From: a virus | Direction: 5' to 3' (one strand) | Length of the DNA stretch: 64,000 nt | Virus record (IMG/VR): IMGVR_UViG_3300045988_051354 | Location: 35,058 to 99,057 of that record | Shown: piece by piece, positions 37,702-49,534 of the stretch | Layout: each line of letters begins with the position of its first letter | Numbering within the stretch: the stretch's first letter is position 1 | Made by a program: the position numbers and the translations under genes | Notes under the pieces: generated by a model | The model's database searches: none | Told to the model about the DNA's origin: nothing | The model's input: the letters and a program-made list of their open reading frames with translations, nothing else

Positions 37702-37783
37702 TTACATTTCACATTAACATGTTAACTTCATAAGCATCTCTGTGTGTTAAAAATAATCTAACAATAGCCTAAGACTATCATCG

Positions 37784-37856
37784 AGCCTCCTACCGGGATC
37801 GAACCGATAACCTATCGCTTACAAGACGATTGCTCTGCCAGTTGAGCTAAGGAGGC
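37784..37856 (-). tRNA. tRNA-Thr(UGU)
   Basis: GCCTCCTTAGCTCAACTGGCAGAGCAATCGTCTTGTAAGCGATAGGTTATCGGTTCGATCCCGGTAGGAGGCT. Confidence 0.8.
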
Positions 37857-37861
37857 AATTT

Positions 37862-37903
37862 CAGAAGACTTTGATATAAAACTATACTGCTGTAGTCTTC
37901 TTA
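37862..37903 (-). promoter_or_regulatory. conserved inverted-repeat element (AGAAGAC...GCTGTAGTCTTCT) between tRNA-Asp and tRNA-Thr
   Basis: Fourth copy of the element also seen at 45525, 48238 and 48723. Confidence 0.45.
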
Positions 37904-37919
37904 TGCAAATCAAAGATTG

Positions 37920-37991
37920 CGGTGCATACGGGAATCGAACCCGTACCCCAAGATAGACAGTCTAGTATCCTAACCTTTAGACCAATGCACC
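37920..37991 (-). tRNA. tRNA-Asp(GUC)
   Basis: Acceptor GGTGCAT/ATGCACC. Anticodon loop CTGTCTA, with one stem mismatch. T-arm ACGGG-TTCGATT-CCCGT. Confidence 0.6.
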
Positions 37992-38318
37992 ATAGAGCTA
38001 GCTTACCTACACTTAACTTCCGTTCCCGGACACAGGATTCAACTTCCGTTCCTAAGTGTATTGTCTCTTCCCGCCAGCTGAGGTATTCCCAATGTTATTG
38101 ATAGGTGTCCATCTCTTCAAATAACTTGGTATGCTAATGAGACTGGGCATATTTTAACTTAATTAAGTCTACAGAGGGTGGGTGTTAGCCGTTTCTATCC
38201 CACCATTGCGTACTACAGTGCTAACTACCGTCTAAGCTTCCATCCCTTACGTCGCCTTAGAGTGTACATGATTATTATTGCCTAATCAGTTACTTGATTG
38301 GAAGGATTATGTACAAGG

Positions 38319-38391
38319 TATTCCCAACGGGGCTCGAACCCGTATTTCCACCGTGAAAGGGTGATTACCTAACCAGTTAGTAGATGGGAAT
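38319..38391 (-). tRNA. tRNA-Glu(UUC)
   Basis: Acceptor ATTCCCA/TGGGAAT. Anticodon stem TCACC/GGTGG with loop CTTTCAC. T-arm ACGGG-TTCGAGC-CCCGT. Confidence 0.7.
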
Positions 38392-38632
38392 ATAAGAGTC
38401 ATGAATAGGAGGTATAAGCATAGTCTAAAACTAACTCAAAGGCTAAGACCAGCTGCATGAGCAAAGACAAAGATAACGACCTTTAAGGGATTCGTTTTTA
38501 TATGCAGCTGTCAGTACATTTTATAAGTTAATATGCCAAGATCTGTGGAAACAGATCTTAAAATTGCTATAAACTTTTATACCTTTCCTATTCATGTAAA
38601 GAGAGATTAGAATCTAAAGCGATTCAGGTTCT

Positions 38633-39520
38633 CTACACCTCAGTAGTGAGAGCTTTCAGCTTCTCATATGTTTTAGCAAGAGCTTCTGGAATAACAATCT
38701 TAAGAGCGGCAATCTTACTACGCTCTTCAATTTGCCAAGTTCTGAACTCAGTTCCTTTGGCTTGCATTGTCATACTATAGACTTCACTTGCATCCTTATA
38801 CTTACGTTCAAGTTCCAGATTGTGTTCCTCAACAAGCTTCTTGATTCTATATTTGTACTTATTCAATGCTCCTTCAACATTTCTATGTTTCTGTTGTAGT
38901 TGCATATAACAATCCTCTACTAAATCAGAGCTAATTGATGGGACGAAATGATACATCATTGCATTGACGCCTTCTCCTATTAGCTTATTAGGCTGTACCA
39001 TACGTTTCATCATATCAGTACGTGCCATAGAGAACGGTTTGTCTGGATGGATAAACTTACCTAGAGTAGCTGCTTCAGCTTCTAAGTTATAGTATTCCAT
39101 TCTTTCTGCAATAGAGAATGTAGCAATGGCATCCTTCTCATTCCACATAATACCTCTTTCAGGAACTTCGGGCATTTCGGAAAGATTCTCAAGGTAATCA
39201 CATAAGTCAGCATTATCAATGAGGCTTAGTTCCTCATCCTTAGCCTTAATAGCTTCACGCATCCAAGCACAGAAAGTATTCATTTCAGCGATTTCTTTAA
39301 GAAGTTCTGGTACAGAAGACAGGTATTGTTCGTTTCTACCTTCAGTTAAAATGGCAGCTTCACCTCCATTTAACAATCTTACAGTACTTGTAATAAATCC
39401 CACACCCTCTAAGGCTCTGCGATTAGATTCCATACATTCTTTAGCCAAATTAGCTAAATGATTAGCGGAAGTAGAAGTAATTCCCTTCTCGCCAAAGAAT
39501 ACACGATTAATTTCCTTCAT
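38633..39520 (-). CDS. hypothetical protein
   Basis: 295 aa. Confidence 0.55.
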   Translation of the reverse strand: MKEINRVFFGEKGITSTSANHLANLAKECMESNRRALEGVGFITSTVRLLNGGEAAILTEGRNEQYLSSVPELLKEIAEMNTFCAWMREAIKAKDEELSLIDNADLCDYLENLSEMPEVPERGIMWNEKDAIATFSIAERMEYYNLEAEAATLGKFIHPDKPFSMARTDMMKRMVQPNKLIGEGVNAMMYHFVPSISSDLVEDCYMQLQQKHRNVEGALNKYKYRIKKLVEEHNLELERKYKDASEVYSMTMQAKGTEFRTWQIEERSKIAALKIVIPEALAKTYEKLKALTTEV

Positions 39521-39544
39521 ATAAATCCTTATTAATTAAGTTAG

Positions 39545-39617
39545 TACCGGGTACGGGATTTGAACCCGTGTTACATGTGTGAGAGACATGCGTCCTATCC
39601 AATTAGACGAACCCGAC
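39545..39617 (-). tRNA. tRNA with anticodon CUC (Glu-type anticodon; identity uncertain)
   Basis: Acceptor GTCGGGT/ACCCGGT, with G-U pairs. Anticodon stem CATGT/ACATG with loop CTCTCAC. T-arm ACGGG-TTCAAAT-CCCGT. Confidence 0.55.
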
Positions 39618-39622
39618 ATCCG

Positions 39623-39910
39623 TTATGCCTTCCAGAAAGTGAATTCTGCATCACTTCCTCTTCCTACGTACTTTACTCCGAATCCATTGGCTCTATAAAT
39701 AGGTTCTACGTCTAACCAATGATTCTTAATAGCTTCTTCCTCTGTTATATTATCAGATGCTATATAGGCAATCACATCTGATTGTTTAAACGCGGAAGCC
39801 AGACCATTCCAATTCTTAACTATTAAAGTATTAAAAGCTAAGATAACCGCATCGGGTATAGACTTAAAGTCTCTACTCATCAATTCCCTTGAATTTAACA
39901 CTTTCACCAT
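39623..39910 (-). CDS. hypothetical protein
   Basis: 95 aa. Confidence 0.45.
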   Translation of the reverse strand: MVKVLNSRELMSRDFKSIPDAVILAFNTLIVKNWNGLASAFKQSDVIAYIASDNITEEEAIKNHWLDVEPIYRANGFGVKYVGRGSDAEFTFWKA

Positions 39911-39960
39911 AATTTTAGTAATTAGGTTAATAATAATTTCACAACTCTTATTAATCAGCG

Positions 39961-40013
39961 CGGAGGCAGCTGGATTCGAACCAGCGGAACCCTTTCAGAG
40001 CTCGGCACGTTAG
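39961..40013 (-). tRNA. split tRNA-Ser(GCU), 3' half (anticodon-loop 3' part, class-II variable arm, T-arm, acceptor 3')
   Basis: CTAA-CGTGC-C-GAGCTCTGAAAGGGTTC-C-GCTGG-TTCGAAT-CCAGC-TGCCTCC-G. Pairs with the 5' half at 40460..40494. Together with TTG from the 5' half it forms the loop TTGCTAA. Confidence 0.6.
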
Positions 40014-40021
40014 TGACAATA

Positions 40022-40038
40022 TTAGGAATCGAACCTAA
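40022..40038 (-). other. T-arm-like hairpin TTAGG-TTCGATT-CCTAA, 8 nt upstream of the tRNA-Ser(GCU) 3' half (shared insertion-end motif)
   Basis: Near-identical to 44749..44765 and structurally equivalent to 46655..46671. Overlaps the last codons of ORF 40022. Confidence 0.5.
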
Positions 40039-40447
40039 TATTATCTAAAACTGTATCATATAAATAGTCTTCATAATTTAATGGAGTGTTCTGATTAGTC
40101 TTCCTATATGGGATAGGGACATTGATACTCTTTCTGCCATTAATTATTTCAACTGGAACTAGTAACAGAATTTTAGATTCTATATTATATAAAGAGAAGT
40201 AATCAATTTCTGATTTATCATATACATGCACTCCAGTACTAGTAGATGATGTTAATCTCCATACAATAACGTTATCTTCAAATCTCTCTGAGGTTTTACA
40301 TTGTATCTTATTTAGTTTGCCATTGAATTCAGCTATCAAGTCAGCACGTTCATTCTCTCCGAATGAAGTATAGACTGGTATACCTCTCCTAACAAACTCG
40401 GCTATCGTAATAGCCTCTCCAATGTTTCCAATTACTTTACTATTCAT
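40022..40447 (-). CDS. small PD-(D/E)xK-like nuclease inside the insertion that splits tRNA-Ser(GCU)
   Basis: SKVIGNIGEAITIAEFVRRGIPV...ERADLIAEF...KIQCK is the same pattern as ORFs 9454 and 46740. Start moved to the internal ATG because the tracked GTG start overlaps the tRNA 5' half. Confidence 0.5.
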   Translation of the reverse strand: MNSKVIGNIGEAITIAEFVRRGIPVYTSFGENERADLIAEFNGKLNKIQCKTSERFEDNVIVWRLTSSTSTGVHVYDKSEIDYFSLYNIESKILLLVPVEIINGRKSINVPIPYRKTNQNTPLNYEDYLYDTVLDNIRFDS

Positions 40448-40459
40448 ACATACATTATG

Positions 40460-40494
40460 CAATGTGCTGGTATAGACCACTCACCCATACCTCC
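40460..40494 (-). tRNA. split tRNA-Ser(GCU), 5' half (acceptor, D-arm, anticodon stem 5' strand)
   Basis: GGAGGTA-TG-GGTG-AGTGGTCTA-TACC-A-GCACA-TTG. Its acceptor pairs perfectly with TGCCTCC 480 nt away, allowing G-U. Canonical T8, A14, G18G19 and A21. Confidence 0.6.
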
Positions 40495-40558
40495 AATTAC
40501 AGAAGACCTTGCTGTATCATTATTAATGCTGTTCGTCTTCTTAAGCTGTAAAAGATTG

Positions 40559-42547
40559 TTACTTCACAGCTTCAAAGTTGTCTTCGGTTGGATTATCCTT
40601 TTTATCCTCGACAAACATTTCTTTAAATGTCTTCTTAAAAGGAATACTCTTAAGAAGTTCAAATGCTGGGTTGAGATTCTCAGCTGTTTTAGCCATGAAA
40701 CTACCAGCAGTATTTTCATTACCATAAACAGTCACTTGTCCAAGATGGATATGTTCATACATCTCTGCGGATGCTTCAGCAATACCTTTAAGCTGATCCA
40801 CTGTCTTGTATTGAACAATCATTTGTGGAGTCATACCACATTCAATCATCTTCTCTACTGCCTTTGCAGGAGCCATTTCAACAGCAGTAATCTTGTCTGC
40901 TTCTGCCATCAAAGATGCTCTCTTACCTTCAGCCTCTGCAAGCAACTTTCTCTTAGTACCTTCAGCTTCAGCTTCAAGTTGCATCTGAGTTGCATTTGCC
41001 TTAGCTTCTGCCTCCTTAAGAATTTCAGCAGCTTTAGCTTCTGCCTTAAGAATAGCTTCTTGCTTTACAGCTTCAGCATCAATAATGGCTTTCTCCTTAG
41101 CTTTATTAGCAGGCACAATTACCGTTGCATTTAATTCAGCTTCTTTAGCTTTGGCTTCAGCTTCTTTAATTTCTGCAATCTTCTCTTGCTCGGTTCTAGC
41201 AATAGTAGTTTCTGCATCCACTTTAGAAATACCTGCAACCTTATCGGCATCAGCAGCAGCCTTTGCAGCTTCTCCTTTAGCCTTAGACACTTCAATTGTA
41301 GCCATATGCTCGGCTACTCCAGCCTGCTTATTAGCTTCAGCTGTCTTCTTACGAGCTTCAGACTCATATTCAGCAGTCCTAGCCTCCTTCTCTTGAACAG
41401 CTTTAATTGTCTCAGCCTCCTGATTCTGTTGAGCAGCAGCAATACGAATTTGCTTAGCTGATTCAGCTTCTTGTTCTTTAGCAGCTGCTTCCGCTTTAGA
41501 TTTAGCCATATTAGCTTTAGCTTGTGCATCCCATTCAGTCTGTTGAGAAATTGCAATAGACTCCTGCTCTGCTACCTTAGAAAGCTTCTCAGCGTTAGCT
41601 TTAGCTACTCCTACTTCCTGCTCTTTCTGTTGATCTGCAATAGCAATACGTTGTTCCTTCTGCTGCTCTGACAGTTTAACTTCCTGCTCCTTAGTAGTTT
41701 CGGCTAATCTAATTGCTTTATCCTTATTAGTTTCAGCAATAGTAGTCTCTTGGTCCTTAAGAGTAATAGCAATGGCTACTTTCTGGTCTCTAGTCGTTTC
41801 AGCTACTTTAGTCTCCCTTTCCTTAGTAGTAAGGGCAATTTGAATTGCTCCTTTCTTCTCTTCTTCAGCAATAGCAGCTTCTGCCTGTGCTCTAGCCTTA
41901 GTAGTTTCTTTCTGACCTAGATTCTCAATATAATTAGCAGCATCTCTGATGTCACTAATATTGATATTAATCAGATACAAACCCAATTTGTTTAATTCAG
42001 TGTTAATATTGTCTCTGGCTTGAGTTAAGAACTTATCTCTGTTAGAATTAAGTTCCTCAATTTCCATAGAAGCTACAATAAGCCTCATTTGGCCATATAC
42101 GATGTCTGAAATTAAACTCTCTTTATCTGTATCATCAACTCCAAGTAATCTATTAGCAGCATTCTGCATAATTAATGGGTCTTGGCTGATTGCTACAGTG
42201 ACTGTAGTAGGAACAGTAACACGAATATTCTGGGCTGATAATGCATCCTTGAGAGTTAAATTCAACTGAATAGGACGCATTGACATTACTTCATATCCCT
42301 GAATGATAGGCCATACAAATGCAGCTCCACCGTGATACACTCTAGCAGTTTTAATTTCTACTTCCCTGCTGACTTGGTTCCCTTTGGCATCAAGTTCATT
42401 TACCTTCTCTTTGTGAGAACCAGTTTTACCATAAACTACTAATAGTTCATCAGATTTACATTTACGATAACGAGATAAAATCCCAATGATAGTAATAATT
42501 GCTATTAATACAATTACTCCTACGATAATTAATGTTGTCATTTCCAT
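40559..42547 (-). CDS. Flotillin-like SPFH/band-7 protein
   Basis: N-terminal TM helix, then an SPFH core (ARVYHGGAAFVWPIIQGYEVMSMRPIQLNL...IRVTVPTTVTVAI). A flotillin-like Ala/Glu-rich coiled-coil region of about 350 aa follows. Confidence 0.7.
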   Translation of the reverse strand: MEMTTLIIVGVIVLIAIITIIGILSRYRKCKSDELLVVYGKTGSHKEKVNELDAKGNQVSREVEIKTARVYHGGAAFVWPIIQGYEVMSMRPIQLNLTLKDALSAQNIRVTVPTTVTVAISQDPLIMQNAANRLLGVDDTDKESLISDIVYGQMRLIVASMEIEELNSNRDKFLTQARDNINTELNKLGLYLININISDIRDAANYIENLGQKETTKARAQAEAAIAEEEKKGAIQIALTTKERETKVAETTRDQKVAIAITLKDQETTIAETNKDKAIRLAETTKEQEVKLSEQQKEQRIAIADQQKEQEVGVAKANAEKLSKVAEQESIAISQQTEWDAQAKANMAKSKAEAAAKEQEAESAKQIRIAAAQQNQEAETIKAVQEKEARTAEYESEARKKTAEANKQAGVAEHMATIEVSKAKGEAAKAAADADKVAGISKVDAETTIARTEQEKIAEIKEAEAKAKEAELNATVIVPANKAKEKAIIDAEAVKQEAILKAEAKAAEILKEAEAKANATQMQLEAEAEGTKRKLLAEAEGKRASLMAEADKITAVEMAPAKAVEKMIECGMTPQMIVQYKTVDQLKGIAEASAEMYEHIHLGQVTVYGNENTAGSFMAKTAENLNPAFELLKSIPFKKTFKEMFVEDKKDNPTEDNFEAVK

Positions 42548-42558
42548 CTTATGAGTCT

Positions 42559-43077
42559 TTAATCTATGTACAATGTGTTATCCATAACCTCACGAATTGT
42601 AACCACTTGATTAACCGCATATGAAGTACCTGAAATAGAAACGAGTTCTACTTCTCTAGATGCTCCACTTATATTTATAAAAGCTAAATAGCGTTTATCA
42701 TCTAAGCGAACATATATTCTAGCTGGTCTTCCTGCTAAGTATACAAGAGGTTCGTCGGTTGGAAAGTTCTGTAATTTCATACAGAATTTATATAAATGAT
42801 ACAGCATAAACACAAATACAAGACCTATAAAGAATCCTATTAACCAATCAATCCAGGTTATCTCATAACCTAGTAGTTGTTTAATAGAAGTCCATCCTCC
42901 AAATCCCATCAGGAAGTGAATAAGACCTTTAAATGAAACAACATCACCAATGTCGAAATCGGCATCTCCATCGAAGTCCACATCAACATCAAGTTCACCT
43001 GCAACCCATGATATTATGAATTGCAAGATAAAGATACCATAGGCAACGCCACCTATGATATAATACACATCACTCAT
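42559..43077 (-). CDS. NfeD-like membrane protein (flotillin partner; TM helices + C-terminal OB-fold)
   Basis: Three hydrophobic helices. A C-terminal beta-rich domain (RIYVRLDDKRYLAFINISGASREVELVSISG). Sits immediately upstream of the flotillin gene, as in nfeD-floT (yuaF-yuaG) operons. Confidence 0.55.
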   Translation of the reverse strand: MSDVYYIIGGVAYGIFILQFIISWVAGELDVDVDFDGDADFDIGDVVSFKGLIHFLMGFGGWTSIKQLLGYEITWIDWLIGFFIGLVFVFMLYHLYKFCMKLQNFPTDEPLVYLAGRPARIYVRLDDKRYLAFINISGASREVELVSISGTSYAVNQVVTIREVMDNTLYID

Positions 43078-43108
43078 CTTGTTAATAATTTAATCTGTTA
43101 ATAAATAG

Positions 43109-43183
43109 TGGGACAGGATGGAGTCGAACCATCATCTCTGAATTTTCAGTCCAGCGCGAACTGACCACCTGCGCTACTGCCCC
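43109..43183 (-). tRNA. tRNA-Phe(GAA)
   Basis: Acceptor GGGGCAG/CTGTCCC. Anticodon stem CTGGA/TTCAG with loop CTGAAAA. T-arm GATGG-TTCGACT-CCATC. Confidence 0.7.
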
Positions 43184-43459
43184 ATATTGCCTACACATAC
43201 GTCTTCACTGGATTTTATGCTTTATTACGCCAGTTGCTTTGGACAACCTAAATCCTTCAGTGCTGTACAATCTTAAAGGCGCCATACAGACTGCCATCGC
43301 ACCTACTCCCATTATCGTGTCACGCAACGTATCCACATCCACCTCTAGGACTTTCACCTAGACCACATCCTCGGCATTATAGTATCTTAGTGAATAATAA
43401 ACAATGAAACAAACTGGAAATTAATTTTAAAGTTAATATTATGTCTATAAGATACTAAG

Positions 43460-43533
43460 GGTGTTATGTCAGAATCGAACTGACGACCTATTGAACCACA
43501 ATCAAGTGCTCTAACCAACTGAGCTAATAACAC
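43460..43533 (-). tRNA. tRNA-His(GUG) with genomically encoded G-1
   Basis: G-GTGTTAT-TA-GCTC-AGTTGGTTA-GAGC...loop TTGTGGT...GTCAG-TTCGATT-CTGAC-ATAACAC-C. The extra 5' G pairs with discriminator C. Confidence 0.75.
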
Positions 43534-43542
43534 CATATATAG

Positions 43543-44049
43543 TTACTCATTCTCGTAACCTTCGCGCACTGCATTTGCAAATACTTGTTTACACATCTCG
43601 TATTCTAGAATGGCTAGTGCTAAGTCTTCTCCTACGTCTTCTACAAACTTGTCTCGGTTATCAGTCTCGTCAAGTTCGTTTAATACCGCTATCAAGTATT
43701 CTAGTAGTTCAAGACATCTATTGTAGCTTTCCCCAACTTTATTGATAATGGCTATCCTATCATTGCTTCTCTTATAGTACTTATGGGTTGAATAATTACA
43801 GTATAACACTACTAATGCACATATAAGTGTAGTAGTAGTGAATGCTTCATTTATATAACATAAGATACTGTGAGTTACAGTAGCAATTAATACAACTGTA
43901 TTAGCATAAAACATCCAATTTAAAGACTTGAGAGCTTTACGGTGTGATAATAAATTATCAACCTCTTCTTTTACCTCGTTAAGCGATTCTAATTCTTTTT
44001 CATACTGTTCACATGATACTTCAAGTAGTTCTTCACTCATATTATTCAA
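43543..44049 (-). CDS. hypothetical membrane protein
   Basis: 168 aa with a central TM region. Confidence 0.45.
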   Translation of the reverse strand: MNNMSEELLEVSCEQYEKELESLNEVKEEVDNLLSHRKALKSLNWMFYANTVVLIATVTHSILCYINEAFTTTTLICALVVLYCNYSTHKYYKRSNDRIAIINKVGESYNRCLELLEYLIAVLNELDETDNRDKFVEDVGEDLALAILEYEMCKQVFANAVREGYENE

Positions 44050-44062
44050 TTTAGTTTAATAG

Positions 44063-44135
44063 TGGACCGTGTGAGATTTGAACTCCTCCTTCATCTTGCA
44101 AGGATGATGTGCTCCCGGATTACACTACACAGCCC
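44063..44135 (-). tRNA. degenerate tRNA-like, anticodon UGC (Ala-like)
   Basis: Acceptor GGGCTGT/ACGGTCC. Anticodon stem TCATC/GATGA with loop CTTGCAA. The T-stem is only 3 bp (AGGAG/CTCAC) and the variable loop is 3 nt. Confidence 0.4.
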
Positions 44136-44238
44136 AGATTTAGTCTCACTATCGTAGGACTATAAGCTTCCAACGTCCGACTGGCTACGGAAGGTTATTT
44201 ACCGGTCTAATAACCTATTATTCATTTTATATGCTTTG

Positions 44239-44466
44239 TTACTTCTTAGTTAAGTACCTGTACACATCTTCGCTACTACTAGATACTACGATCATTACAC
44301 CTATCCAGGAGCTAATTACAAACAGTGCCAGAACTAGTAACATTCCATAGTCGAACTCGTAACGTTCTTTATTTCTTTGCCTTACTTTGTACTCAATAAT
44401 TAATCCGATTATGGTACGTAATAAAGCAGCAATGCATCCAGCCGAATAAATCCATAAGAACAACAT
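44239..44466 (-). CDS. small membrane protein (tandem paralogue of 44468..44677)
   Basis: Two TM helices. Shares SWIGV with its neighbour. Confidence 0.4.
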   Translation of the reverse strand: MLFLWIYSAGCIAALLRTIIGLIIEYKVRQRNKERYEFDYGMLLVLALFVISSWIGVMIVVSSSSEDVYRYLTKK

Positions 44467-44467
44467 A

Positions 44468-44677
44468 CTACTTCTTTCTAAACATCACTATACCTGGAGA
44501 TACAAATACTATAACTGCAACAACACCAATCCATGAAGTTATTACAAGAGTTAATTCCATTAATAAGTCACACAAGTTGTAAGTGTAATTAGAATTTCTC
44601 TTATAGTCACGATATTCATAGAAACACACAGCCATCAAAGCAACTACACATCCGATAATATAAATAATCAGCATCAT
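44468..44677 (-). CDS. small membrane protein (tandem paralogue of 44239..44466)
   Basis: Two TM helices. SWIGVVAV. Confidence 0.4.
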   Translation of the reverse strand: MMLIIYIIGCVVALMAVCFYEYRDYKRNSNYTYNLCDLLMELTLVITSWIGVVAVIVFVSPGIVMFRKK

Positions 44678-44702
44678 ACATTTTTAATTATTAGTTAATA
44701 AG

Positions 44703-44740
44703 TACCCCGACTGCGATTCGAACGCAGATATGTGGCTTAG
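44703..44740 (-). tRNA. split tRNA-Arg(UCU), 3' half
   Basis: CTAA-GCCAC-ATAT-CTGCG-TTCGAAT-CGCAG-TCGGGGT-A. Confidence 0.65.
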
Positions 44741-44748
44741 TATAAGAA

Positions 44749-44765
44749 CTAGGAGTCGAACCTAA
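44749..44765 (-). other. T-arm-like hairpin TTAGG-TTCGACT-CCTAG, 8 nt upstream of the tRNA-Arg(UCU) 3' half (shared insertion-end motif)
   Basis: See 40022..40038. Overlaps the stop codon of the HNH ORF. Confidence 0.5.
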
Positions 44766-45370
44766 TTCTTATTGTTATTAATTTCATTTTTATGGTAACG
44801 GTAATAGGAACGTTCTCCACACTTGTTCTTAGACTTATAAGTATCAAGCTGTGAATCACAGTTAGGACATATGCATCGTAAATTATCTCTACGATTGTTA
44901 GATGCATGTCCGTCTATATGGTCAATGATAAAGACCAGCTCTTTACCATTCCAGATAGGCTTCATACCACATATAGCACATACTCCACCTTGCTCTTTTA
45001 GAATATCTTTCTTGAAGGCCTTAGGAGAGTAGTTAGCTCTCATTATACTTTCATCACCGTCCAAAAGCTTCTTGTAAGCAAGCATATGAGCATGTTCAAA
45101 TTGACATTTAGGACCACAGTACTTGCCATAACTTCCGTTATAACTAATAAGTTCTGCACCACAGTTTAAACAGTATTTGTACTTCCTATTGAATGTTTCT
45201 TTAGGATTAATTTTACGTTTAATTGGTAACTCTATGCCAAGTCTACGCGCTACATTCTTAATATTAGCACCTGAACAACCATATCTTCTTCCTATTTCCT
45301 CATAACTGAGCTTATCTATCAAAATTAAATGCTCAAGTTGAGCTTTCTCGTTAATCCATTTACTTGTCAT
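44762..45370 (-). CDS. HNH homing endonuclease with N-terminal HTH, inside the insertion that splits tRNA-Arg(UCU)
   Basis: HTH LSYEEIGRRYGCSGANIKNVARRLGI. HNH motif VCAICG...FIIDHIDGHASNNRRDNLRCICPNCDSQ. Confidence 0.75.
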   Translation of the reverse strand: MTSKWINEKAQLEHLILIDKLSYEEIGRRYGCSGANIKNVARRLGIELPIKRKINPKETFNRKYKYCLNCGAELISYNGSYGKYCGPKCQFEHAHMLAYKKLLDGDESIMRANYSPKAFKKDILKEQGGVCAICGMKPIWNGKELVFIIDHIDGHASNNRRDNLRCICPNCDSQLDTYKSKNKCGERSYYRYHKNEINNNKN

Positions 45371-45486
45371 ATTCGTCTAAATTAGAAATTCGTACCTCAA
45401 AGATACGAATCTTTTACGAATTAAACAAGTAAATGGATGTTTTGTTGAAATTAATAACAGTGAGTTACGGACTCACCAGCCGTATG

Positions 45487-45520
45487 AAGGCCACTGTTCT
45501 ATCCCTTGAACTATCGAGGC
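45487..45520 (-). tRNA. split tRNA-Arg(UCU), 5' half
   Basis: GCCTCGA-TA-GTTC-AAGGGATA-GAAC-A-GTGGC-CTT. The D-arm is perfect. The acceptor pairs with TCGGGGT, and anticodon stem GTGGC pairs with GCCAC in the 3' half 746 nt away. The reconstituted loop is CTTCTAA. Confidence 0.65.
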
Positions 45521-45524
45521 ATTA

Positions 45525-45576
45525 ACAGAAGACATTGTAATCATATGTAACATGACACCTGCTGTATGTCTTCTTA
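45525..45576 (-). promoter_or_regulatory. conserved inverted-repeat element immediately upstream of the tRNA-Arg(UCU) 5' half
   Basis: acagaagac-[34 nt]-gctgtatgtcttctta. Confidence 0.45.
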
Positions 45577-45588
45577 GGCGATACTATT

Positions 45589-45936
45589 TTATGAACATAA
45601 AGCTATCAGTTCTTTAGTAGTCCTTTTATATTGCAATCTGTTATATCTTTCTCCCTTACATATTGCACAACTACAGGGAGTACTCATGGTTTTAAACCTA
45701 AAGGTATTCTTAGCATTATAAAGTTCAGTCCAGCTTATTGCTTTACGCCACTTATTACTGCTACAGATATACCAATGCGGAAATGACCGTTTAATCCTAG
45801 TAATATACTTCTGGTCTTTCTTTAGGTTCCTCCACAATTTGTTTCTGTGAATTCTTGATTCTTTCATGTTTAGTTCTTCCATCGTCTCGTCCACTAATAT
45901 TAACAATGTCCTGACTTGGATTGTAACCAGTACCAA
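45589..45936 (-). CDS. hypothetical basic Cys-containing protein
   Basis: 115 aa. Partly overlaps ORF 45797..45979. Confidence 0.35.
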   Translation of the reverse strand: MVLVTIQVRTLLILVDETMEELNMKESRIHRNKLWRNLKKDQKYITRIKRSFPHWYICSSNKWRKAISWTELYNAKNTFRFKTMSTPCSCAICKGERYNRLQYKRTTKELIALCS

Positions 45937-45993
45937 TGAATTTCTTCATATCTAGTCCCGATAAATTGATTGTCTTCATACGATAATTAAATT

Positions 45994-46281
45994 TTAATAG
46001 TTAAATACACTGTGATACTTTAGCCAATCTCTATAAGCTTTAGCATCCATGTTATAGGAATAATTCCAGTGAAACCTTCTCAGCTCCTTAATAAGTTCTG
46101 TTCGTATTTCATACGTGAGACGCACACCAGGTGCTGTATTAGATATATAGAATTGTTCTTTAACAAATGAGAAATACCCGTATAATATAGGTGTGCGCTT
46201 TCCCTTAAACTTATTAAGTAGAATAGCATGCAAACGGCTGTTATCCTTGCTGTACTTCGTTGGATATAGTGTCACGTTCAT
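45994..46281 (-). CDS. hypothetical protein
   Basis: 95 aa. Confidence 0.4.
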   Translation of the reverse strand: MNVTLYPTKYSKDNSRLHAILLNKFKGKRTPILYGYFSFVKEQFYISNTAPGVRLTYEIRTELIKELRRFHWNYSYNMDAKAYRDWLKYHSVFNY

Positions 46282-46567
46282 TGTCTAATATAGCAACAGC
46301 TAGACTATAACCATTATATAATGTCCCAATAAGACGTTTAAGTTTCTTCTTTATCTTCCTAGGAAGTTTTGGAAGATTAACATTCATAAGCTCTTCAGCT
46401 TCTTTATGTCTGGCTCTAACAGCAAGTTCTAAGTTCTTAGGGACATCTTCGGAATCAAAGAATGCGTTCAATACCGGCTCCTCTGGTAACAATCTTATGA
46501 CTCTGTAAGCTACTCTTGCTTTCTTATTGTTACTGAGCTGATCAACGTGTTTAAATTTCAATTTCAT
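46241..46567 (-). CDS. hypothetical protein
   Basis: 108 aa. Confidence 0.4.
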   Translation of the reverse strand: MKLKFKHVDQLSNNKKARVAYRVIRLLPEEPVLNAFFDSEDVPKNLELAVRARHKEAEELMNVNLPKLPRKIKKKLKRLIGTLYNGYSLAVAILDNERDTISNEVQQG

Positions 46568-46592
46568 AATCTTTCATTAATAAATTAATAAG

Positions 46593-46646
46593 AGGAAGGA
46601 CAGGGATTCGAACCCTGGGATCGCTGTTACACGACCAACAGTTTTG
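46593..46646 (-). tRNA. orphan tRNA 3' half (stem, class-II variable arm, T-arm, acceptor 3') directly after tRNA-Ser(UGA)
   Basis: CAAAA-CTGTT-GGTCGTGTAACAGCGATCC-CAGGG-TTCGAAT-CCCTG-TCCTTCC-T. No 5' half lies within 100 nt. A possible 5' partner is at 47143..47200. Confidence 0.45.
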
Positions 46647-46738
46647 AGGAAGCAGTGGGACTCCAACCCACACATCACTGTTACATGATTACTGGTGCTT
46701 TTCAAGAGCACTGCCTTAGCAATTAGGCTTATACTTCC
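46647..46738 (-). tRNA. tRNA-Ser(UGA), class II (non-canonical T-loop TTGGAGT)
   Basis: GGAAGTA-TA-AGCC..GGC-A-GTGCT-CTTGAAA-AGCAC-[23-nt variable arm]-GTGGG-TTGGAGT-CCCAC-TGCTTCC-T. Confidence 0.6.
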
Positions 46739-46739
46739 A

Positions 46740-47132
46740 TTACAATGAAACTTTATATTTGTCCCATTTATCCGTAAGAGTTAGAGTACTTTTAACTGTA
46801 ATCTCACTTGAAGGAATCTCGTACATATCGCCATTGACTACTACAATAAATAATATATCACATGTAGAATTATCAAAGTGTCTAATCTTTGATTGTCCAG
46901 AGGAGCCTCCACAATTCTTTAATAGAACTTCATAGTTGCCACTCTTTGATAGGTATTGAGTAGTTTTAACAGAAACTCTCTTCAGCCCATCTCTATCTAT
47001 TGCTATATCATATTTTTGAGTATCATTTAAAGGAATCAGGACAGGAATACAATTAGTTGTATAATAAGCTATAGCTCTACCCAGCCCTAAATTGCCTTGA
47101 TGTGATTTGTAGTCGCTTTCCCAAGCGTTCAT
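46740..47132 (-). CDS. small PD-(D/E)xK-like nuclease (third paralogue) immediately upstream of tRNA-Ser(UGA)
   Basis: LGLGRAIAYYTTNCIPVLIPL...YDIAIDRDGLKRVSVK is the same pattern as ORFs 9454 and 40022. Confidence 0.5.
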   Translation of the reverse strand: MNAWESDYKSHQGNLGLGRAIAYYTTNCIPVLIPLNDTQKYDIAIDRDGLKRVSVKTTQYLSKSGNYEVLLKNCGGSSGQSKIRHFDNSTCDILFIVVVNGDMYEIPSSEITVKSTLTLTDKWDKYKVSL

Positions 47133-47142
47133 TTACATAACA

Positions 47143-47200
47143 TTAAAAATTTCTAACTGTTTATCTAACCGTTGCATTAAGCCAACTCTGCCACCCTTCC
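47143..47200 (-). tRNA. tRNA 5'-fragment-like element (Ser-like acceptor + 3-bp D-stem, long D-loop + anticodon-arm-like hairpin)
   Basis: GGAAGGG-TG-GCA-GAGTTGGCTTAA-TGC-A-ACGGT-TAGATAA-ACAGT resembles a tRNA-Ser 5' portion. The acceptor is complementary to TCCTTCC of the orphan 3' half at 46593. Confidence 0.3.
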
Positions 47201-47324
47201 ATTAATAAGAGAGCATCTATCTTTCGATTACATACTCAATGACACTCTCCGAATTACTCCGGTCCTCGACAGTAGACCTTTACTGTTTAGCTAAAGCTGT
47301 CGACACTTTAGGTTATCAGTTTCG

Positions 47325-47399
47325 CACGCCCTGCACGACTCGAACATGCAACACACCCAGTTTTGGAGACAGGGGCTCTACCGATTGAGCTAAGGACGC
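47325..47399 (-). tRNA. tRNA-Trp(CCA)
   Basis: GCGTCCT-TA-GCTC-AATCGGTA-GAGC-C-CCTGT-CTCCAAA-ACTGG-[7-nt variable]-GCATG-TTCGAGT-CGTGC-AGGGCGT-G. Confidence 0.65.
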
Positions 47400-47661
47400 A
47401 TTTTAGTTACCAATCCTGAATGATTGTAAGGAACATTACTATAAAACCCGCTGTACCTACAGCAACTCTGCCATCTTCATTTAGTGGAGAATACACTGCT
47501 ATTAGAATTAATACAAATCCTAATAATAGTTGTAATATAAACTTAACATTTCTCATAATCACGCATCTCCAGAATTAGCAATCCACATGATGTATATAAT
47601 CATAATCACACCTACGACAAATTCTGTTAACATAATCAAATACATTTAAAATTAAACATTG

Positions 47662-47733
47662 CGGCGAGTGCAGGATTCGAACCTGCGACCAATTGGTTAA
47701 CGGCCAACTGCTCTACCACTGAGCTAACTCGCC
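47662..47733 (-). tRNA. tRNA-Asn(GUU)
   Basis: GGCGAGTTAGCTCAGTGGTAGAGCAGTTGGCCGTTAACCAATTGGTCGCAGGTTCGAATCCTGCACTCGCCG. Confidence 0.8.
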
Positions 47734-47742
47734 ATTTAAATA

Positions 47743-47940
47743 CTAAACACCATCTAGCATTATTAAGAAACCTATAATGGCTATCATAGAACCAATTATG
47801 ATTGGAACTCCTATAATATCTCCTAAGTTTACTAGTATTGGCAACAATAGAATCATGCATCCAATTAGAAACATGATAAGTCCTTTAATAAATCTGTGTG
47901 TCATAAAATCTATATATTTCCTACTGACAGGCGGCAGCAT
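47743..47940 (-). CDS. hypothetical small membrane protein
   Basis: 65 aa, two TM helices. The overlapping tracked ORFs are probably spurious. Confidence 0.35.
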   Translation of the reverse strand: MLPPVSRKYIDFMTHRFIKGLIMFLIGCMILLLPILVNLGDIIGVPIIIGSMIAIIGFLIMLDGV

Positions 47941-48160
47941 GATTATCCATGCGGAATTATCATGCCTGTGGGAGTCATTACATAAGTCTTAGAGACTTGA
48001 ATGAAATACCACTTAACTGCTTTCTTAATTAACTTAAATAGTTTCATAATAACTCAGTTTTAGTCAGTAAATTAATAATCTAAAAGGAAACCACTCTATC
48101 TTCACAGACCGAGTGGTCGAATACAATTTGCACTTCAAGTTGCTTAATTAAAGCATTCCT

Positions 48161-48232
48161 AGTGACTCCGCAGGGACTTGAACCCTGTTCTATAGATTAA
48201 AAGTCTATAGCATATCCATACATGCTCCGGAG
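48161..48232 (-). tRNA. tRNA-Lys(UUU)
   Basis: GACTCCG-GA-GCAT..ATGC-T-ATAGA-CTTTTAA-TCTAT-AGAA-CAGGG-TTCAAGT-CCCTG-CGGAGTC-A. Confidence 0.8.
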
Positions 48233-48237
48233 TCATC

Positions 48238-48307
48238 CTACAGAAGACAGAATTAAATCACACGAATAAATTGGCGGTTGCCAAGTCATGAAGTGCTGAC
48301 GTCTTCT
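48238..48307 (-). promoter_or_regulatory. conserved inverted-repeat element immediately upstream of tRNA-Lys
   Basis: acagaagac-[52 nt]-gctgacgtcttctta. Confidence 0.45.
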
Positions 48308-48325
48308 TATATTTCACTAAATCGA

Positions 48326-48399
48326 AGAGTGGGCGCTCGGATTCGAACCGAGGAATACAGATTTTGCAGACCTGCCTATTAAGCCACTCTAGCACGCCC
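48326..48399 (-). tRNA. tRNA-Cys(GCA)
   Basis: Acceptor GTGGGCG/CGCCCAC. Anticodon stem CAGGT/ATCTG with loop CTGCAAA. T-arm CTCGG-TTCGAAT-CCGAG. Confidence 0.7.
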
Positions 48400-48499
48400 A
48401 CATGTCAATGGACTAATGTGAGGCGAAAGTGAAACGGTTTAATCATTAAGGTCTTAATGATTGGATCTAGTGAAACTAAATAAACATACAAATAAATCG

Positions 48500-48573
48500 T
48501 CTGGGTAGCCGGGTACGATCCGACACTCTCTAGCTCCCAAAGCTAGCGGATTAACCTATTCTCCTATACCCAG
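48500..48573 (-). tRNA. tRNA-Pro(UGG) with atypical T-loop ATCGTAC
   Basis: Acceptor CTGGGTA/TACCCAG. Anticodon stem CTAGC/GCTAG with loop TTTGGGA. T-stem GTCGG/CCGGC. Confidence 0.55.
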
Positions 48574-48578
48574 AGTGC

Positions 48579-48622
48579 GGAAGTCTAAATATGCTTGACA
48601 TGGGTTATGCTGTAAGACTTCC
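48579..48622 (-). promoter_or_regulatory. covarying variant of the inverted-repeat element upstream of tRNA-Pro
   Basis: ggaagtct-[28 nt]-gctgtaagacttcc. The arms have changed in a complementary way compared with agaagac/gtcttct. Confidence 0.4.
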
Positions 48623-48643
48623 TATTAATTCGAAATCAAGACG

Positions 48644-48718
48644 TGGGCAAGATAGGACTTGAACCTATGACCCCTACTTTATCAGAGTAGTGCTCTAGAC
48701 CTACTGAGCTACTTGCCC
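48644..48718 (-). tRNA. tRNA-Ile(GAU)
   Basis: GGGCAAGTAGCTCAGTAGGTCTAGAGCACTACTCTGATAAAGTAGGGGTCATAGGTTCAAGTCCTATCTTGCCCA. Confidence 0.8.
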
Positions 48719-48722
48719 ATCC

Positions 48723-48788
48723 ACAGAAGACGCTACCAATACTAATCATATAAGAGGCGTGTGCTGTACGTCTTCTTAAATAAAATAA
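48723..48788 (-). promoter_or_regulatory. conserved inverted-repeat element immediately upstream of tRNA-Ile
   Basis: acagaagac-[48 nt]-gctgtacgtcttctta. Confidence 0.45.
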
Positions 48789-48822: not shown

Positions 48823-49473
48823 CTATTGTGCATACTCCCATCTATATCCGTATGCTGTCTTAGTCTTGTGCTTAGCTGCATTAGAGATATGGCTTCTAAC
48901 ACCTCCGTTATATGTCTTAGCATAACCATTATCAACACACCAATGTGCTGCGTCAGCCACGCTATTAAACACTTGCACAAGTATATCTTCGTTGTACTGT
49001 TCTATCTTTACTGGAGGTTTACAGGAGCCACAATGTGACTCGCTATTACTGTGGGATCTCTTGATATCCTTCACTACTTTGGACACTGTATCTGGATGAC
49101 ATCCTACTATTTTAGCAGTCTCTTTCATCGAATGTCTAGCAGCGTAGAGCTCACGAATTTCATCATAGTTCCAAATAATAGAACCATCTCCACCGGTAGT
49201 GGCATTATAACCATTACCATAGGTTTTAAATTCATTTATCCAGTAAGTTTCTCTTCCGCTAGATTCCTTTGACGAGCACTCTTCTAGCATTTCTATGCTA
49301 AATGAATCAATTCCATATTTATTCATGGCTCTATACAAAGGTCTATCTTTGCATCTCTCCTTCTTATAATCTCTACAGTGTTCTTTCCATCTCTTACTAA
49401 CGGACGAAGTAGTTTTACCTATATACTTCTTTCCATTTACATGGTTAGTTATGCAGTAAATATAAGACATCAA
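48823..49473 (-). CDS. GIY-YIG homing endonuclease (I-TevI/Seg-like)
   Basis: YIYCITNHVNGKKYIGKT (GIY and YIG), conserved R/E/N, and a C-terminal DNA-binding region. Flanked by a 15-nt direct repeat of a tRNA 3' end. Confidence 0.8.
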   Translation of the reverse strand: MMSYIYCITNHVNGKKYIGKTTSSVSKRWKEHCRDYKKERCKDRPLYRAMNKYGIDSFSIEMLEECSSKESSGRETYWINEFKTYGNGYNATTGGDGSIIWNYDEIRELYAARHSMKETAKIVGCHPDTVSKVVKDIKRSHSNSESHCGSCKPPVKIEQYNEDILVQVFNSVADAAHWCVDNGYAKTYNGGVRSHISNAAKHKTKTAYGYRWEYAQ

Positions 49474-49534
49474 GCTTTAGTCGAATTAGCGTTACCCGAA
49501 TCTCACCACGTGGAGGTTTCGACTATGAGATTCT

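What the first reader, a model, noticed from the sequence alone, without database searches (positions are those of the whole stretch)
37862..48788. Conserved 45-70-nt inverted-repeat element upstream of at least five tRNA genes, with compensatory arm changes
The form acagaagac-(N34-52)-gctgt(a)(c)gtcttctta occurs at 37862-37903 (upstream of Thr), 45525-45576 (upstream of the Arg(UCU) 5' half), 48238-48307 (upstream of Lys) and 48723-48788 (upstream of Ile). Upstream of Pro (48579-48622) the arms are ggaagtct...agacttcc, complementary on both sides. That points to a conserved stem, either an RNA processing or leader structure, or a promoter or cruciform. The motif GCTGTA also recurs upstream of tRNA-Trp (gctgtacctacagc).
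Basis: seen in the sequence. Interest (0 to 1): 0.65.

Follow-up and report, generated by a model that had tools for sequence, protein, structure and literature searches.

The report
Class I-like hairpin RNAs before tRNAs
The repeats are six copies of a conserved small hairpin RNA in the leaders of phage tRNA genes. The same RNA family lies next to a Ro60-like protein gene in many phages and in bacteria, and it closely resembles the 'Class I' RNAs thought unique to social amoebae, so it probably marks a widespread, undescribed RNA-protein particle.

Summary
On the minus strand, which all tRNAs share, the window holds six copies, not five, of UA-AGAAGNCN(1-2)-(N)ACAGCA-[19-50 variable nt]-N(1-2)GNCUUCU-G, each ending 4-6 nt before a tRNA 5' end. 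The stem covaries strongly, also when copies are picked without asking for pairing. The GCTGTA palindrome near tRNA-Trp is unrelated.

The element is more than a leader hairpin. It belongs to a large family, (U)AAG-stem-(U)UACAGCAA-variable-stem-CUG(U), found hundreds of times in related and distant phages, always on the coding strand, usually just before tRNAs or tmRNA. The family travels with one gene, window 51829-53547, a DUF2828+vWA protein whose model matches Ro60. In seven cellular Bacteroidota genomes, 1-4 copies lie 11-440 nt from that gene. Some members carry tRNA-like inserts, as bacterial Y RNAs do.

The only Rfam family that resembles it is the Dictyostelium Class I RNA, and only below threshold. 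The two share the architecture, the UUACAGCAA motif, and the AAG and CUGU ends.

Best reading: Y-RNA-like partner RNAs of a Ro60-like protein, embedded in tRNA operons so that RNase P sets their 3' ends. Protein binding, expression and function are all inferred.

The parts
37862..37901 (-). Element copy 1. 8-bp closing stem AGAAGACU/AGUCUUCU, ACAGCA at 37888-37893, trailing G, then AAAUU and tRNA-Thr(UGU) at 37783-37856. It lies 17 nt downstream of tRNA-Asp.
   Evidence: 46.2 bits; 29.3 bits
40500..40541 (-). Stem AGAAGAC/GUCUUCU with GAACAGCA. It is followed by GUAAUU and the 5' part of a class-II tRNA that is interrupted by a PD-(D/E)XK endonuclease ORF (40022-40480).
   Evidence: 49 bits; 33 bits
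45526..45574 (-). Element copy 3. 9-bp stem AGAAGACAU/AUGUCUUCU with ACAGCA. It is followed by GUUAAU and the 5' part of tRNA-Arg(UCU), which is interrupted by a stretch carrying an HNH endonuclease ORF (44762-45370).
   Evidence: 57 bits; 32.5 bits
48241..48307 (-). Element copy 4. Stem AGAAGACG/UGUCUUCU (one G.U pair), UCAGCA, a 50-nt loop, then GUAGGAU and tRNA-Lys(UUU) at 48162-48234. It lies about 20 nt downstream of tRNA-Cys.
   Evidence: 38.2 bits; 19.1 bits
48578..48622 (-). Element copy 5. Both stem sides are changed (GGAAGUCU/AGACUUCC), with UACAGCA, then GCACU and tRNA-Pro(UGG) at 48499-48573. It lies 20 nt downstream of tRNA-Ile.
   Evidence: 40.7 bits; z -3.4; 20.1 bits
48724..48776 (-). 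Element copy 6. 9-bp stem AGAAGACGU/GCGUCUUCU (one U.G pair), ACAGCA, then GUGGAU and tRNA-Ile(GAU) at 48643-48718.
   Evidence: 54.6 bits; 33.4 bits
51829..53547 (-). Gene for a 572-aa DUF2828 (PF11443) + DUF7788 (vWA-like, PF25043) protein with a Ro60-like predicted fold. It is the proposed protein partner of the elements and lies 3 kb upstream of the nearest element on the same strand.
   Evidence: (phrog_850 'RNA-binding protein')

Best explanation
Each element is a small structured RNA module transcribed in the tRNA direction. A 7-10 bp closing helix has conserved terminal pairs (A-U and G-C at the base, C-G at position 7). An unpaired (U)ACAGCA(A) motif is stacked on its 5' arm, followed by a freely variable loop and a 3' CUG(U) tail.

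The modules belong to a family that I propose is the cognate, Y-RNA-like partner of a Ro60-like protein, the DUF2828+vWA protein encoded at 51829-53547. In this phage the modules are embedded in the 5' leaders of six tRNA genes. Host RNase P cleavage at the tRNA 5' end would leave the hairpin with a short single-stranded 3' tail of G plus 4-6 nt. This would either release a 45-75-nt RNA that assembles with the protein, or bring the protein onto the tRNA precursor in cis.

Shown: the structure and its covariation, the family and its strand bias, the fixed spacing to tRNA or tmRNA 5' ends, the gene-RNA linkage in phages and in cellular bacteria, and the Ro60-like predicted fold.

Inferred: transcription, RNase P-dependent end formation, physical binding to the protein, and any role in RNA quality control or tRNA maturation.
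For: (1) Structure. The six window copies all fold with the closing stem as the minimum-free-energy structure. Covariation is documented.

(2) Family. An IMG/VR pattern scan returned 107 stretches, and model R1 then found 160 hits in 100 of those loci. In 56 loci taken around distant homologues of the protein (32-45% identity), R1 found 206 hits, all on the protein's strand. By strict criteria 75 of 80 loci hold at least one copy, with 369 copies on the gene strand and 0 on the other.

(3) RNase P substrates. Of 240 distinct candidates, 107 end 5-8 nt before an ARAGORN tRNA. Others precede intron-containing tRNAs, and three precede tmRNA.

(4) Independent gene-RNA linkage. L104 is an unrelated environmental phage whose protein is 35% identical (E 5e-104). 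It has a tandem array of these hairpins directly after the gene, behind sigma-70-like promoters. In all seven independent cellular genomes examined (one named Lewinella sp. 4G2, one named a Chitinophagales MAG, five unnamed), which have different neighbouring genes, 1-4 canonical copies lie 11-440 nt from the DUF2828 gene on its strand and nowhere else in the loci.

(5) Same family. Model R3 was built from one bacterial copy, L104 and 11 distant phages. It ranks the six window copies first.

(7) Y-RNA parallels. Some members carry a permuted tRNA-like insert (T arm, closed acceptor stem, D arm) in the loop, as in L133, L137, L152, L177, L104, L196 and L199, like YrlA (PMC4201824). One bacterial locus has a WYL regulator and RtcB upstream, echoing the rsr-yrlA-rtcBA operon. 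D. radiodurans Yrn2 is co-transcribed with a tRNA.
Against: There are no expression or binding data.

Within the phages the gene-RNA co-occurrence could be shared ancestry. In the window itself the nearest copy is 3 kb from the gene.

The protein is Ro60-like only by predicted fold. TM-scores are low (0.31) and pTM is 0.52. Pfam TROVE is not hit, and phmmer against PDB sequences finds nothing.

The RNA lacks the known Ro60-binding motifs (GGUCCGA, GNCGAA), and no Rfam Y-RNA family appeared among the hits in the phage regions scanned at E<=10.

G.U against A.C counts (15 against 10) do not by themselves prove that the RNA strand is the structured one.

In bacteria the copies could instead be UTR elements of the DUF2828 mRNA.
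Confidence: 0.6

Rival explanations
1. A plain cis-acting leader hairpin with no dedicated protein. It would stabilise the upstream RNA's 3' end after RNase P cleavage, or tune RNase P or 3'-exonuclease processing of the flanking tRNAs.
For: The distance to the tRNA 5' end is fixed. The base at -1 is usually U, and leaders are A/U-rich. Of the 240 candidates, 81 also have a tRNA 3' end within 40 nt upstream, so the hairpin would sit in that tRNA's trailer.
Against: A generic stabiliser needs no conserved loop motif or conserved terminal nucleotides. The same element occurs without any tRNA: in tandem arrays next to the DUF2828 gene in bacteria and in L104, and before an ORF in L011. Only some of the tRNA genes in the loci examined carry it.
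Confidence: 0.2
2. A DNA-level signal: a promoter for the tRNA genes (possibly hairpin- or cruciform-dependent, as for N4 virion RNA polymerase) or a binding site for a DNA-binding regulator.
For: The 5' half is a linear motif with constant spacing, (U)AAG-N6-7-ACAGCA, and it lies upstream of genes. Wobble statistics do not exclude DNA.
Against: The distance from the 5' motif to the gene start varies from about 35 to more than 160 nt, while the 3' arm stays complementary. Loops of 19-140 nt disfavour cruciform extrusion. There is no excess of sigma-70-like sites. In L104 ordinary TTGACT-N17-TAAATT promoters lie upstream of the hairpins, so the hairpins would be transcribed. Copies lie inside tRNA-tRNA spacers only 15-20 nt after the previous tRNA. 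The closest known relatives are expressed RNAs.
Confidence: 0.07
3. A small self-cleaving ribozyme that makes the tRNA 5' end, a 5'-side counterpart of the HDV-like theta ribozymes that flank tRNAs in recoded gut phages.
For: The window holds other ribozymes: a RAGATH-1 hammerhead and a sub-threshold HDV-like hit next to a suppressor tRNA. Theta ribozymes adjoin phage tRNAs (PMC10879173).
Against: Only about 6 unpaired conserved nucleotides and one helix are conserved, and no conserved internal structure exists in the loop. No ribozyme family matches at E<=10. The spacer between hairpin and tRNA varies from 4 to 7 nt and looks like a normal RNase P leader. The element also occurs where nothing needs cutting.
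Confidence: 0.03
4. A mobile or recombination element, such as a MITE-like inverted repeat, an attC-like site or an IS200/IS605-type hairpin, that targets tRNA genes.
For: It has inverted repeats with a variable centre, multiple copies per genome, and homing endonucleases and interrupted tRNAs nearby.
Against: Copies are orthologous. The same tRNA identities carry them in phages whose loops have diverged completely, while the stems keep pairing through compensatory changes. There are no target-site duplications and no transposase or integrase association. All copies are in one orientation. The arm sequence does not fit the attC R-box consensus I recall; this was compared by eye only.
Confidence: 0.03

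Closest known systems
Dictyostelium Class I RNAs (Rfam RF01414; Kjellin et al. 2021, PMC7919456)
   Same: The architecture is the same: a short stem joining the 5' and 3' ends with compensatory changes, a conserved motif directly after the 5' arm, a variable remainder, and a total length of about 42-65 nt (window copies 40-67 nt). The conserved letters are also the same. Dictyostelium has (AA)G-UUGAC-C-UUACAGCAA(AU)...GUCAA-C-UG(U). The phage family has (UA)AG-AAGAC-UUACAGCAA(AU)...GUCUU-C-UG(U). RF01414 is the only non-tRNA Rfam family that aligns full-length to phage copies, at 34.5, 27.9, 27.5, 23.4 and 18.6 bits.
   Different: All scores are below Rfam's gathering threshold of 41.5. A model built only from D. 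discoideum sequences finds none of the six window copies. In other phages it gives only weak hits, at most 20.6 bits, though by my comparison of coordinates most of them coincide with phage elements. The stem-to-motif distance differs by 1 nt. The window copies keep only (N)ACAGCA. There is no DUSE promoter. The phage copies are fused to tRNA genes, whereas Class I RNAs are free-standing, probably Pol III, genes. Class I RNAs are reported as restricted to Dictyostelia and bind the RRM protein Rnp1A.
Y RNAs / YrlA with Ro60 (Rsr) (Chen et al. 2014, PMC4201824)
   Same: These are small RNAs whose ends pair into a helix, encoded next to the gene of a ring-plus-vWA RNA-binding protein, often in several tandem copies. 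Some carry a tRNA-like module (T arm, acceptor, D arm). In one bacterium they are linked to RtcB, and in D. radiodurans they are co-transcribed with a tRNA.
   Different: The protein is DUF2828, not a TROVE-domain Ro60. It resembles Ro60 only by predicted fold. The RNA lacks the Ro60-binding motif GGUCCGA/GNCGAA and has (U)ACAGCA(A) instead. No Rfam Y-RNA family appeared among the hits in the phage regions scanned. The six window copies have no tRNA-like module.
Theta (HDV-like) ribozymes flanking tRNAs in recoded gut phages (Kienbeck et al. 2024, PMC10879173)
   Same: They share the genomic setting: gut phages with suppressor tRNAs and many tRNA genes, and small structured RNAs abutting tRNAs. 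The window has a sub-threshold HDV-like hit.
   Different: Theta ribozymes lie with their cleavage site against the tRNA and are proposed to process tRNA 3' ends. This element lies 5' of the tRNA, shows no match to any ribozyme family, and has too little conserved core for catalysis.
tRNA-linked small RNAs that borrow tRNA-processing enzymes for end formation (for example MALAT1/mascRNA and gammaherpesvirus tRNA-miRNA units; recalled from established knowledge, not tested here)
   Same: A non-tRNA RNA is fused to a tRNA or tRNA-like unit, so that RNase P or RNase Z defines its end.
   Different: Those systems are eukaryotic or viral Pol III and Pol II units. Here the small RNA lies upstream of a genuine phage tRNA, and the processing step is inferred.

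Membership tests
Dictyostelium Class I RNA (RF01414) | A short terminal stem joining the 5' and 3' ends, kept by compensatory changes | tested here: met
   The stem is 7-10 bp, 96.5% paired, and 6 of 8 pairs show double changes.
Dictyostelium Class I RNA (RF01414) | A conserved 11-nt motif (CCUUACAGCAA) directly after the 5' arm | tested here: inconclusive
   The family consensus is cuuACAGCAAau. Of 240 candidates, 85 have the exact TTACAGCAA and 184 have ACAGCAA. The window copies keep only (U/A)CAGCA plus 0-2 further matches. The motif position is shifted by 1 nt relative to Dictyostelium.
Dictyostelium Class I RNA (RF01414) | Conserved ends: start AAG, end CUGU | tested here: met
   The family consensus is tAAG...TCTGnt. 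Five of the six window copies read UAAG...CUG(U/A), and the Pro copy reads UAGG...CCG.
Dictyostelium Class I RNA (RF01414) | A score at or above the curated Rfam threshold (41.5 bits) | tested here: not met
   The best phage score is 34.5 bits. No hit reaches the threshold in 7 loci. No hit at E<=10 falls on the window copies. The D. discoideum-only model misses them too.
Dictyostelium Class I RNA (RF01414) | An upstream DUSE promoter, expression as a free 42-65-nt RNA, and Rnp1A binding | not testable with these tools
   DUSE is a eukaryotic element and is not expected in a phage. Expression and binding need experiments.
Y RNA / YrlA (Ro60 partner RNAs) | Encoded next to a Ro60 orthologue gene | tested here: inconclusive
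Y RNA / YrlA (Ro60 partner RNAs) | A Ro60-binding sequence (GGUCCGA, or GNCGAAN0-1G in bacteria) in the terminal helix | tested here: not met
   The motif is absent from the consensus. The motif definition is taken from PMC4201824.
Y RNA / YrlA (Ro60 partner RNAs) | A tRNA-like module in at least one RNA per genome | tested here: inconclusive
   T-arm, closed-acceptor and D-arm inserts are seen by eye in the loops of some members (L133, L137, L152, L177, L104, L196, L199). They are absent from the six window copies, and no Rfam Y-RNA family was among the hits on L133.
Self-cleaving ribozymes (hammerhead, HDV-like/theta, twister, pistol, hatchet) | A match to the family's conserved core and structure | tested here: not met
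   No ribozyme family hits the elements at E<=10. The loops have no conserved structure.

The most novel reading that the evidence does not exclude
DUF2828+vWA proteins would be a second, unrecognised branch of Ro60-like RNA-binding rings, with their own Y-RNA-like partners: a hairpin with UAAG...CUGU ends and a UUACAGCAA motif. The particle would be conserved from Bacteroidota and their large phages to Amoebozoa. The abundant Dictyostelium 'Class I' RNAs, held to be a dictyostelid invention tied to multicellularity, would be its eukaryotic members.

Four amoebozoan transcriptomes encode close DUF2828 homologues. One is fused to a 2H/LigT-like RNA-end-processing domain. One of the four proteins pulled down with Class I RNA DdR-21, DDB_G0281243, has no known function.
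Probability: 0.35. Interest if true: 0.9.

Novelty: new variant of a known kind. Interest (0 to 1): 0.8.

Why it matters
If the reading holds, three things follow.

First, it gives a candidate RNA ligand and a testable function to DUF2828. In the ten full-text searches I ran on the held library, which is not the whole literature, I found no functional study of this domain. It is common in phages and occurs in Bacteroidota, and papers in that library mention it in plants.

Second, it extends the Ro60/Y-RNA principle to a structurally related but sequence-unrelated protein family, and shows a phage planting such RNAs inside tRNA operons.

[quoted passage not shown] It also offers a concrete biochemical hypothesis for RNAs whose mechanism has been open since their discovery.

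Even on the minimal reading, the element is a new, widespread, strongly covarying RNA motif that annotation pipelines miss.

Tried and rejected
- **Rfam.** At gathering and at E<=10, no family covers the window copies.
- **Phage collection.** Megablast of the region against INPHARED found no relatives.
- **D. discoideum-only covariance model (R2).** It does not recover the window copies.
- **Wobble asymmetry.** G.U against A.C counts, meant to prove an RNA-level structure, were inconclusive at 15 against 10.
- **Promoters.** The sigma-70 promoter scan showed no enrichment. Bacteroidota-type promoters could not be scanned.
- **Pairing of ACAGCA with the downstream tRNA.** By eye, none of the downstream tRNAs I looked at (Thr, Ile, Lys, Arg 5' part) contains the complement UGCUG.
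- **Protein identification by sequence.** phmmer against PDB sequences and Pfam TROVE were both negative. Only fold comparison linked the protein to Ro60.
- **Cellular genomes.** The GTDB species-genome scan with phage-derived peptide patterns returned only 8 mis-binned phage contigs. The cellular homologues surfaced later, through the amoebozoan hit.
- **A DUF2828 protein in D. discoideum, or the identity of DDB_G0281243.** The AlphaFold-database library was unavailable, the paper supplements hold no match, and the literature search was empty.
- **The GCTGTA palindrome near tRNA-Trp.** Rejected as a member.

Full report
**What is in the window**

ARAGORN and Rfam place 25-26 tRNA genes in the 64-kb window, all on the minus strand and interspersed with minus-strand ORFs. 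Two are CUA suppressors. The sequence is a large gut phage genome. Near-identical contigs in IMG/VR reach 182 kb, and megablast finds no relative among deposited phages.

All five reported copies are there. A sixth, at 40500-40541, precedes the 5' part of a class-II tRNA that is interrupted by a PD-(D/E)XK endonuclease ORF.

Model R1, scored over every position of both strands, finds these six at 38-57 bits and nothing else above 13.8 bits. The GCTGTA palindrome near tRNA-Trp is not a member. It fits a terminator-like hairpin.

**Is the stem real?**

An IMG/VR scan with a pattern for the AAGAAGAC form returned 107 stretches. The genuine ones were all followed by tRNAs and had unrelated loop sequences.

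I then looked at every tRNA in those loci without prescribing the arm sequence. Orthologous elements appeared whose arms differ on both sides: AGAAGGCA/UGCCUUCU, AGAAGUCUU/GAGACUUCU, AGGAGAUG/CGUCUCCU and AGAAGCCU/AGGCUUCU.

To avoid circularity I selected contexts by the linear 5' motif alone. Of 64 such contexts, 62 have a perfect 7-bp complement ending 3-10 nt before the tRNA, against 2.7% in the background. I also selected by a 5' AAG..CAGCA anchor plus a 3' CUG anchor, with no pairing demanded. On those 64 distinct stems, 96.5% of cells pair, against about 45% when the partner is slid. Six of 8 pairs carry double changes, and there are 96 compensatory cells against 26.5 in shuffles.

All six window copies fold with this helix as the minimum-free-energy structure. 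The wobble test is not decisive, with 15 G.U against 10 A.C. The case for an RNA rather than a DNA structure therefore rests on other evidence, given below.

**A lead from an unrelated locus**

One pattern hit, L104, comes from a different metagenome. There, after ordinary TTGACT-N17-TAAATT promoters, sits a tandem series of hairpins with quite different stems. Each has (A)CAGCA at the start of the loop. Two enclose what looks like a permuted tRNA: T arm, acceptor 3' strand with CCA, a linker, acceptor 5' strand and D arm.

The ORF just upstream is 35% identical (E 5e-104) to the window ORF at 51829-53547. Both belong to Pfam DUF2828 + DUF7788. PHROGs labels the family 'RNA-binding protein'.

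**The gene and the RNA travel together**

I fetched 80 IMG/VR loci around homologues of the protein, at 32-99% identity. In the 56 most distant loci, R1 found 206 hits, every one on the gene's strand. By strict criteria 75 of 80 loci hold at least one copy, with 369 on the gene strand and none on the other. In 12 loci the nearest copy is within 1 kb of the gene.

The family consensus sharpens to (U)AUAAG-stem-(U/A)ACAGCAA-variable(20-140 nt)-stem-CUG(U/A). Of 240 distinct candidates, 107 end 5-8 nt before an ARAGORN tRNA. Others precede intron-containing tRNAs. Three precede tmRNA, and a few precede an ORF or another copy. Where something follows closely, it is therefore usually an RNase P substrate.

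**Independent confirmation outside phages**

A profile search of 1.8 billion representative proteins turned up an amoebozoan homologue. Its relatives include DUF2828 proteins on large (0.4-8 Mb) contigs of cellular genomes, among them Lewinella sp. 4G2 and a Chitinophagales MAG.

I fetched seven independent cellular loci, which have unrelated neighbouring genes. In all seven, canonical copies of the form (A)AAG-AUUAC-CA-CAGCA(A/C)...GUAAU-CUG(U), with other compensated stems, lie 11-440 nt from the gene on its strand. They occur in 1-4 tandem copies and nowhere else in the loci. One locus also has a WYL regulator, RtcB and a tRNA array upstream, which is reminiscent of the Salmonella rsr-yrlA-rtcBA operon.

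To tie this back to the window, I built model R3 from one bacterial copy, L104 and eleven distant phage copies. None has the AGAAGAC stem and none belongs to the window's clade. Its six best hits in the window are exactly the six elements, at 33.4-19.1 bits, with the next hit at 13.3.

**Comparison with what is known**

The only Rfam family that aligns to the elements is RF01414, the Class I RNA of Dictyostelium. The alignments are full-length and coincide with the element boundaries, but all fall below the gathering score of 41.5. The scores are 34.5 and 23.4 bits in L104, 27.9 in L060, 27.5 in L096 and 18.6 in L133. None reaches threshold in seven further loci.

Published Class I features are a 6-bp stem joining the ends with compensatory changes, an 11-nt motif after the 5' arm, conserved AAG start and CUGU end, a variable remainder, and a length of 42-65 nt. 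The RNAs are reported as unique to Dictyostelia (PMC7919456).

The curated D. discoideum sequences read GUUGAC-C-UUACAGCAA(AU)...GUCAAC-UG. The phage consensus reads (A)AGAAGAC-UUACAGCAA(AU)...GUCUUC-UG(U). The resemblance in architecture and in about 20 conserved letters is striking.

It is weaker for the window's own copies, which keep only (N)ACAGCA. A model built from D. discoideum alone misses them and gives only weak hits elsewhere, at most 20.6 bits. By my comparison of coordinates, most of those hits coincide with phage elements on the gene strand. I therefore treat Class I RNA as the closest known kind, not as an established membership.

Y RNAs are the closest functional analogue. They share the terminal helix, gene adjacency, tandem copies, tRNA-like inserts in some members, and co-transcription with tRNA in Deinococcus. 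However, the Ro60-binding motif is absent and no Rfam Y-RNA family appeared among the hits in the scanned regions.

**Mechanism proposed**

The hairpins would be transcribed with the tRNAs. RNase P cleavage at the tRNA 5' end would leave the hairpin with a short 3' tail. The closing helix, with its conserved end pairs and the unpaired ACAGCA(A), would be the recognition surface for the Ro60-like DUF2828-vWA protein. The RNA would then act either as a released Y-like RNA or in cis on the tRNA precursor.

The first part is shown: structure, family, linkage and fold. The second part is inference: transcription, cleavage, binding and function.

Rival readings are weighed in the rivals section. Each fails to explain the conserved loop motif, the conserved ends, and the tRNA-free copies beside the DUF2828 gene.

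**Open point**

I could not determine whether Dictyostelium encodes a DUF2828 protein. I also could not determine whether DDB_G0281243, a protein of unknown function pulled down with Class I RNA DdR-21, is one.

Four amoebozoan transcriptomes do encode close homologues. One is fused to a 2H/LigT-like domain. Contamination of those transcriptomes by bacterial prey cannot be excluded.

Noticed in passing
window 49470-49533 (-): A sub-threshold HDV-like ribozyme hit (RF02682, 37 bits against a gathering score of 44). It lies just downstream of the suppressor tRNA(CUA) at 49615-49687 and a weak tRNA-like hit at 49540-49607. This is the setting described for theta ribozymes in recoded gut phages.
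   Followed up: partly
window 62333-62406 (-) and 53804-53901 (-): A RAGATH-1 hammerhead ribozyme (82.6 bits) and a RAGATH-34 RNA (86.9 bits). The RAGATH-34 RNA sits about 250 nt upstream of the Ro60-like DUF2828 gene and contains CUGAUGA and GAAAC strings.
   Followed up: partly
window 39950-40495 (-) and 44760-45520 (-): Two tRNA genes (a class-II tRNA, Ser-GCU in orthologous loci, and Arg-UCU) are interrupted by long inserts encoding a PD-(D/E)XK endonuclease (40022-40480) and an HNH endonuclease (44762-45370). Orthologous loci have uninterrupted genes. The group I intron model did not hit here at E<=10, although it hits a related locus (L186 12450-12665).
   Followed up: partly
window 35347-36501 (-): This ORF matches phrog_1211, annotated as an adenylosuccinate-synthetase-like (PurZ-type) enzyme (E 1e-43). 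That hints the phage may replace adenine with 2-aminoadenine in its DNA.
   Followed up: no
window 49615-49687 (-) and 60913-60987 (-): Two tRNAs with anticodon CUA (called tRNA-Pyl by ARAGORN), that is, amber suppressors. This is consistent with TAG recoding in part of the genome.
   Followed up: no
window 31450-31560 (-): A 14-bp hairpin (AUAAGAACAUAAGG/CUUUAUGUUCUUAU) encloses about 78 nt and ends 4 nt before tRNA-Met. It is conserved in L075 and L079, with one U.G change. It starts like the element (AUAAGAA) but has no ACAGCA and no CUG end, and the models do not score it. It may be a distant variant.
   Followed up: no
window 43184-43290 (-) and 24184-24240 (-); L011 3560-3590: Other conserved leaders contain ACAGCAC. 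An approximately 90-nt structured stretch lies before tRNA-Phe (GUACAGCAC-hairpin-GUGAAGAC) and is conserved in at least nine loci. A GGYGUAACAGCAC motif lies before tRNA-Arg(ACG) and in L011. Neither is scored by the family models, and both are unexplained.
   Followed up: no
L133 16559-16702, L137 17828-17986, L145 12601-12668: The Arg(UCU)-linked element exists in a short form (68 nt) and in long forms (144-159 nt). The long forms carry an inserted permuted tRNA-like module bounded by a repeated UUAGCA, which suggests gain or loss of the module by short-repeat recombination.
   Followed up: partly
P0241 (Rhizamoeba saxonica transcript, 843 aa): An amoebozoan DUF2828+vWA protein is fused at its C-terminus to a 2',5'-RNA-ligase/2H-phosphoesterase-type domain (PF13563). 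This fusion points to RNA-end metabolism for the family.
   Followed up: no
window 37904-37918, 48308-48326, 48623-48642 (-): The short trailers after tRNA-Asp, tRNA-Cys and tRNA-Ile, each lying before an element, share a UYGAUUU string 3-5 nt after the tRNA 3' end. It may be a 3'-processing signal or a Bacteroidota-type promoter fragment.
   Followed up: no
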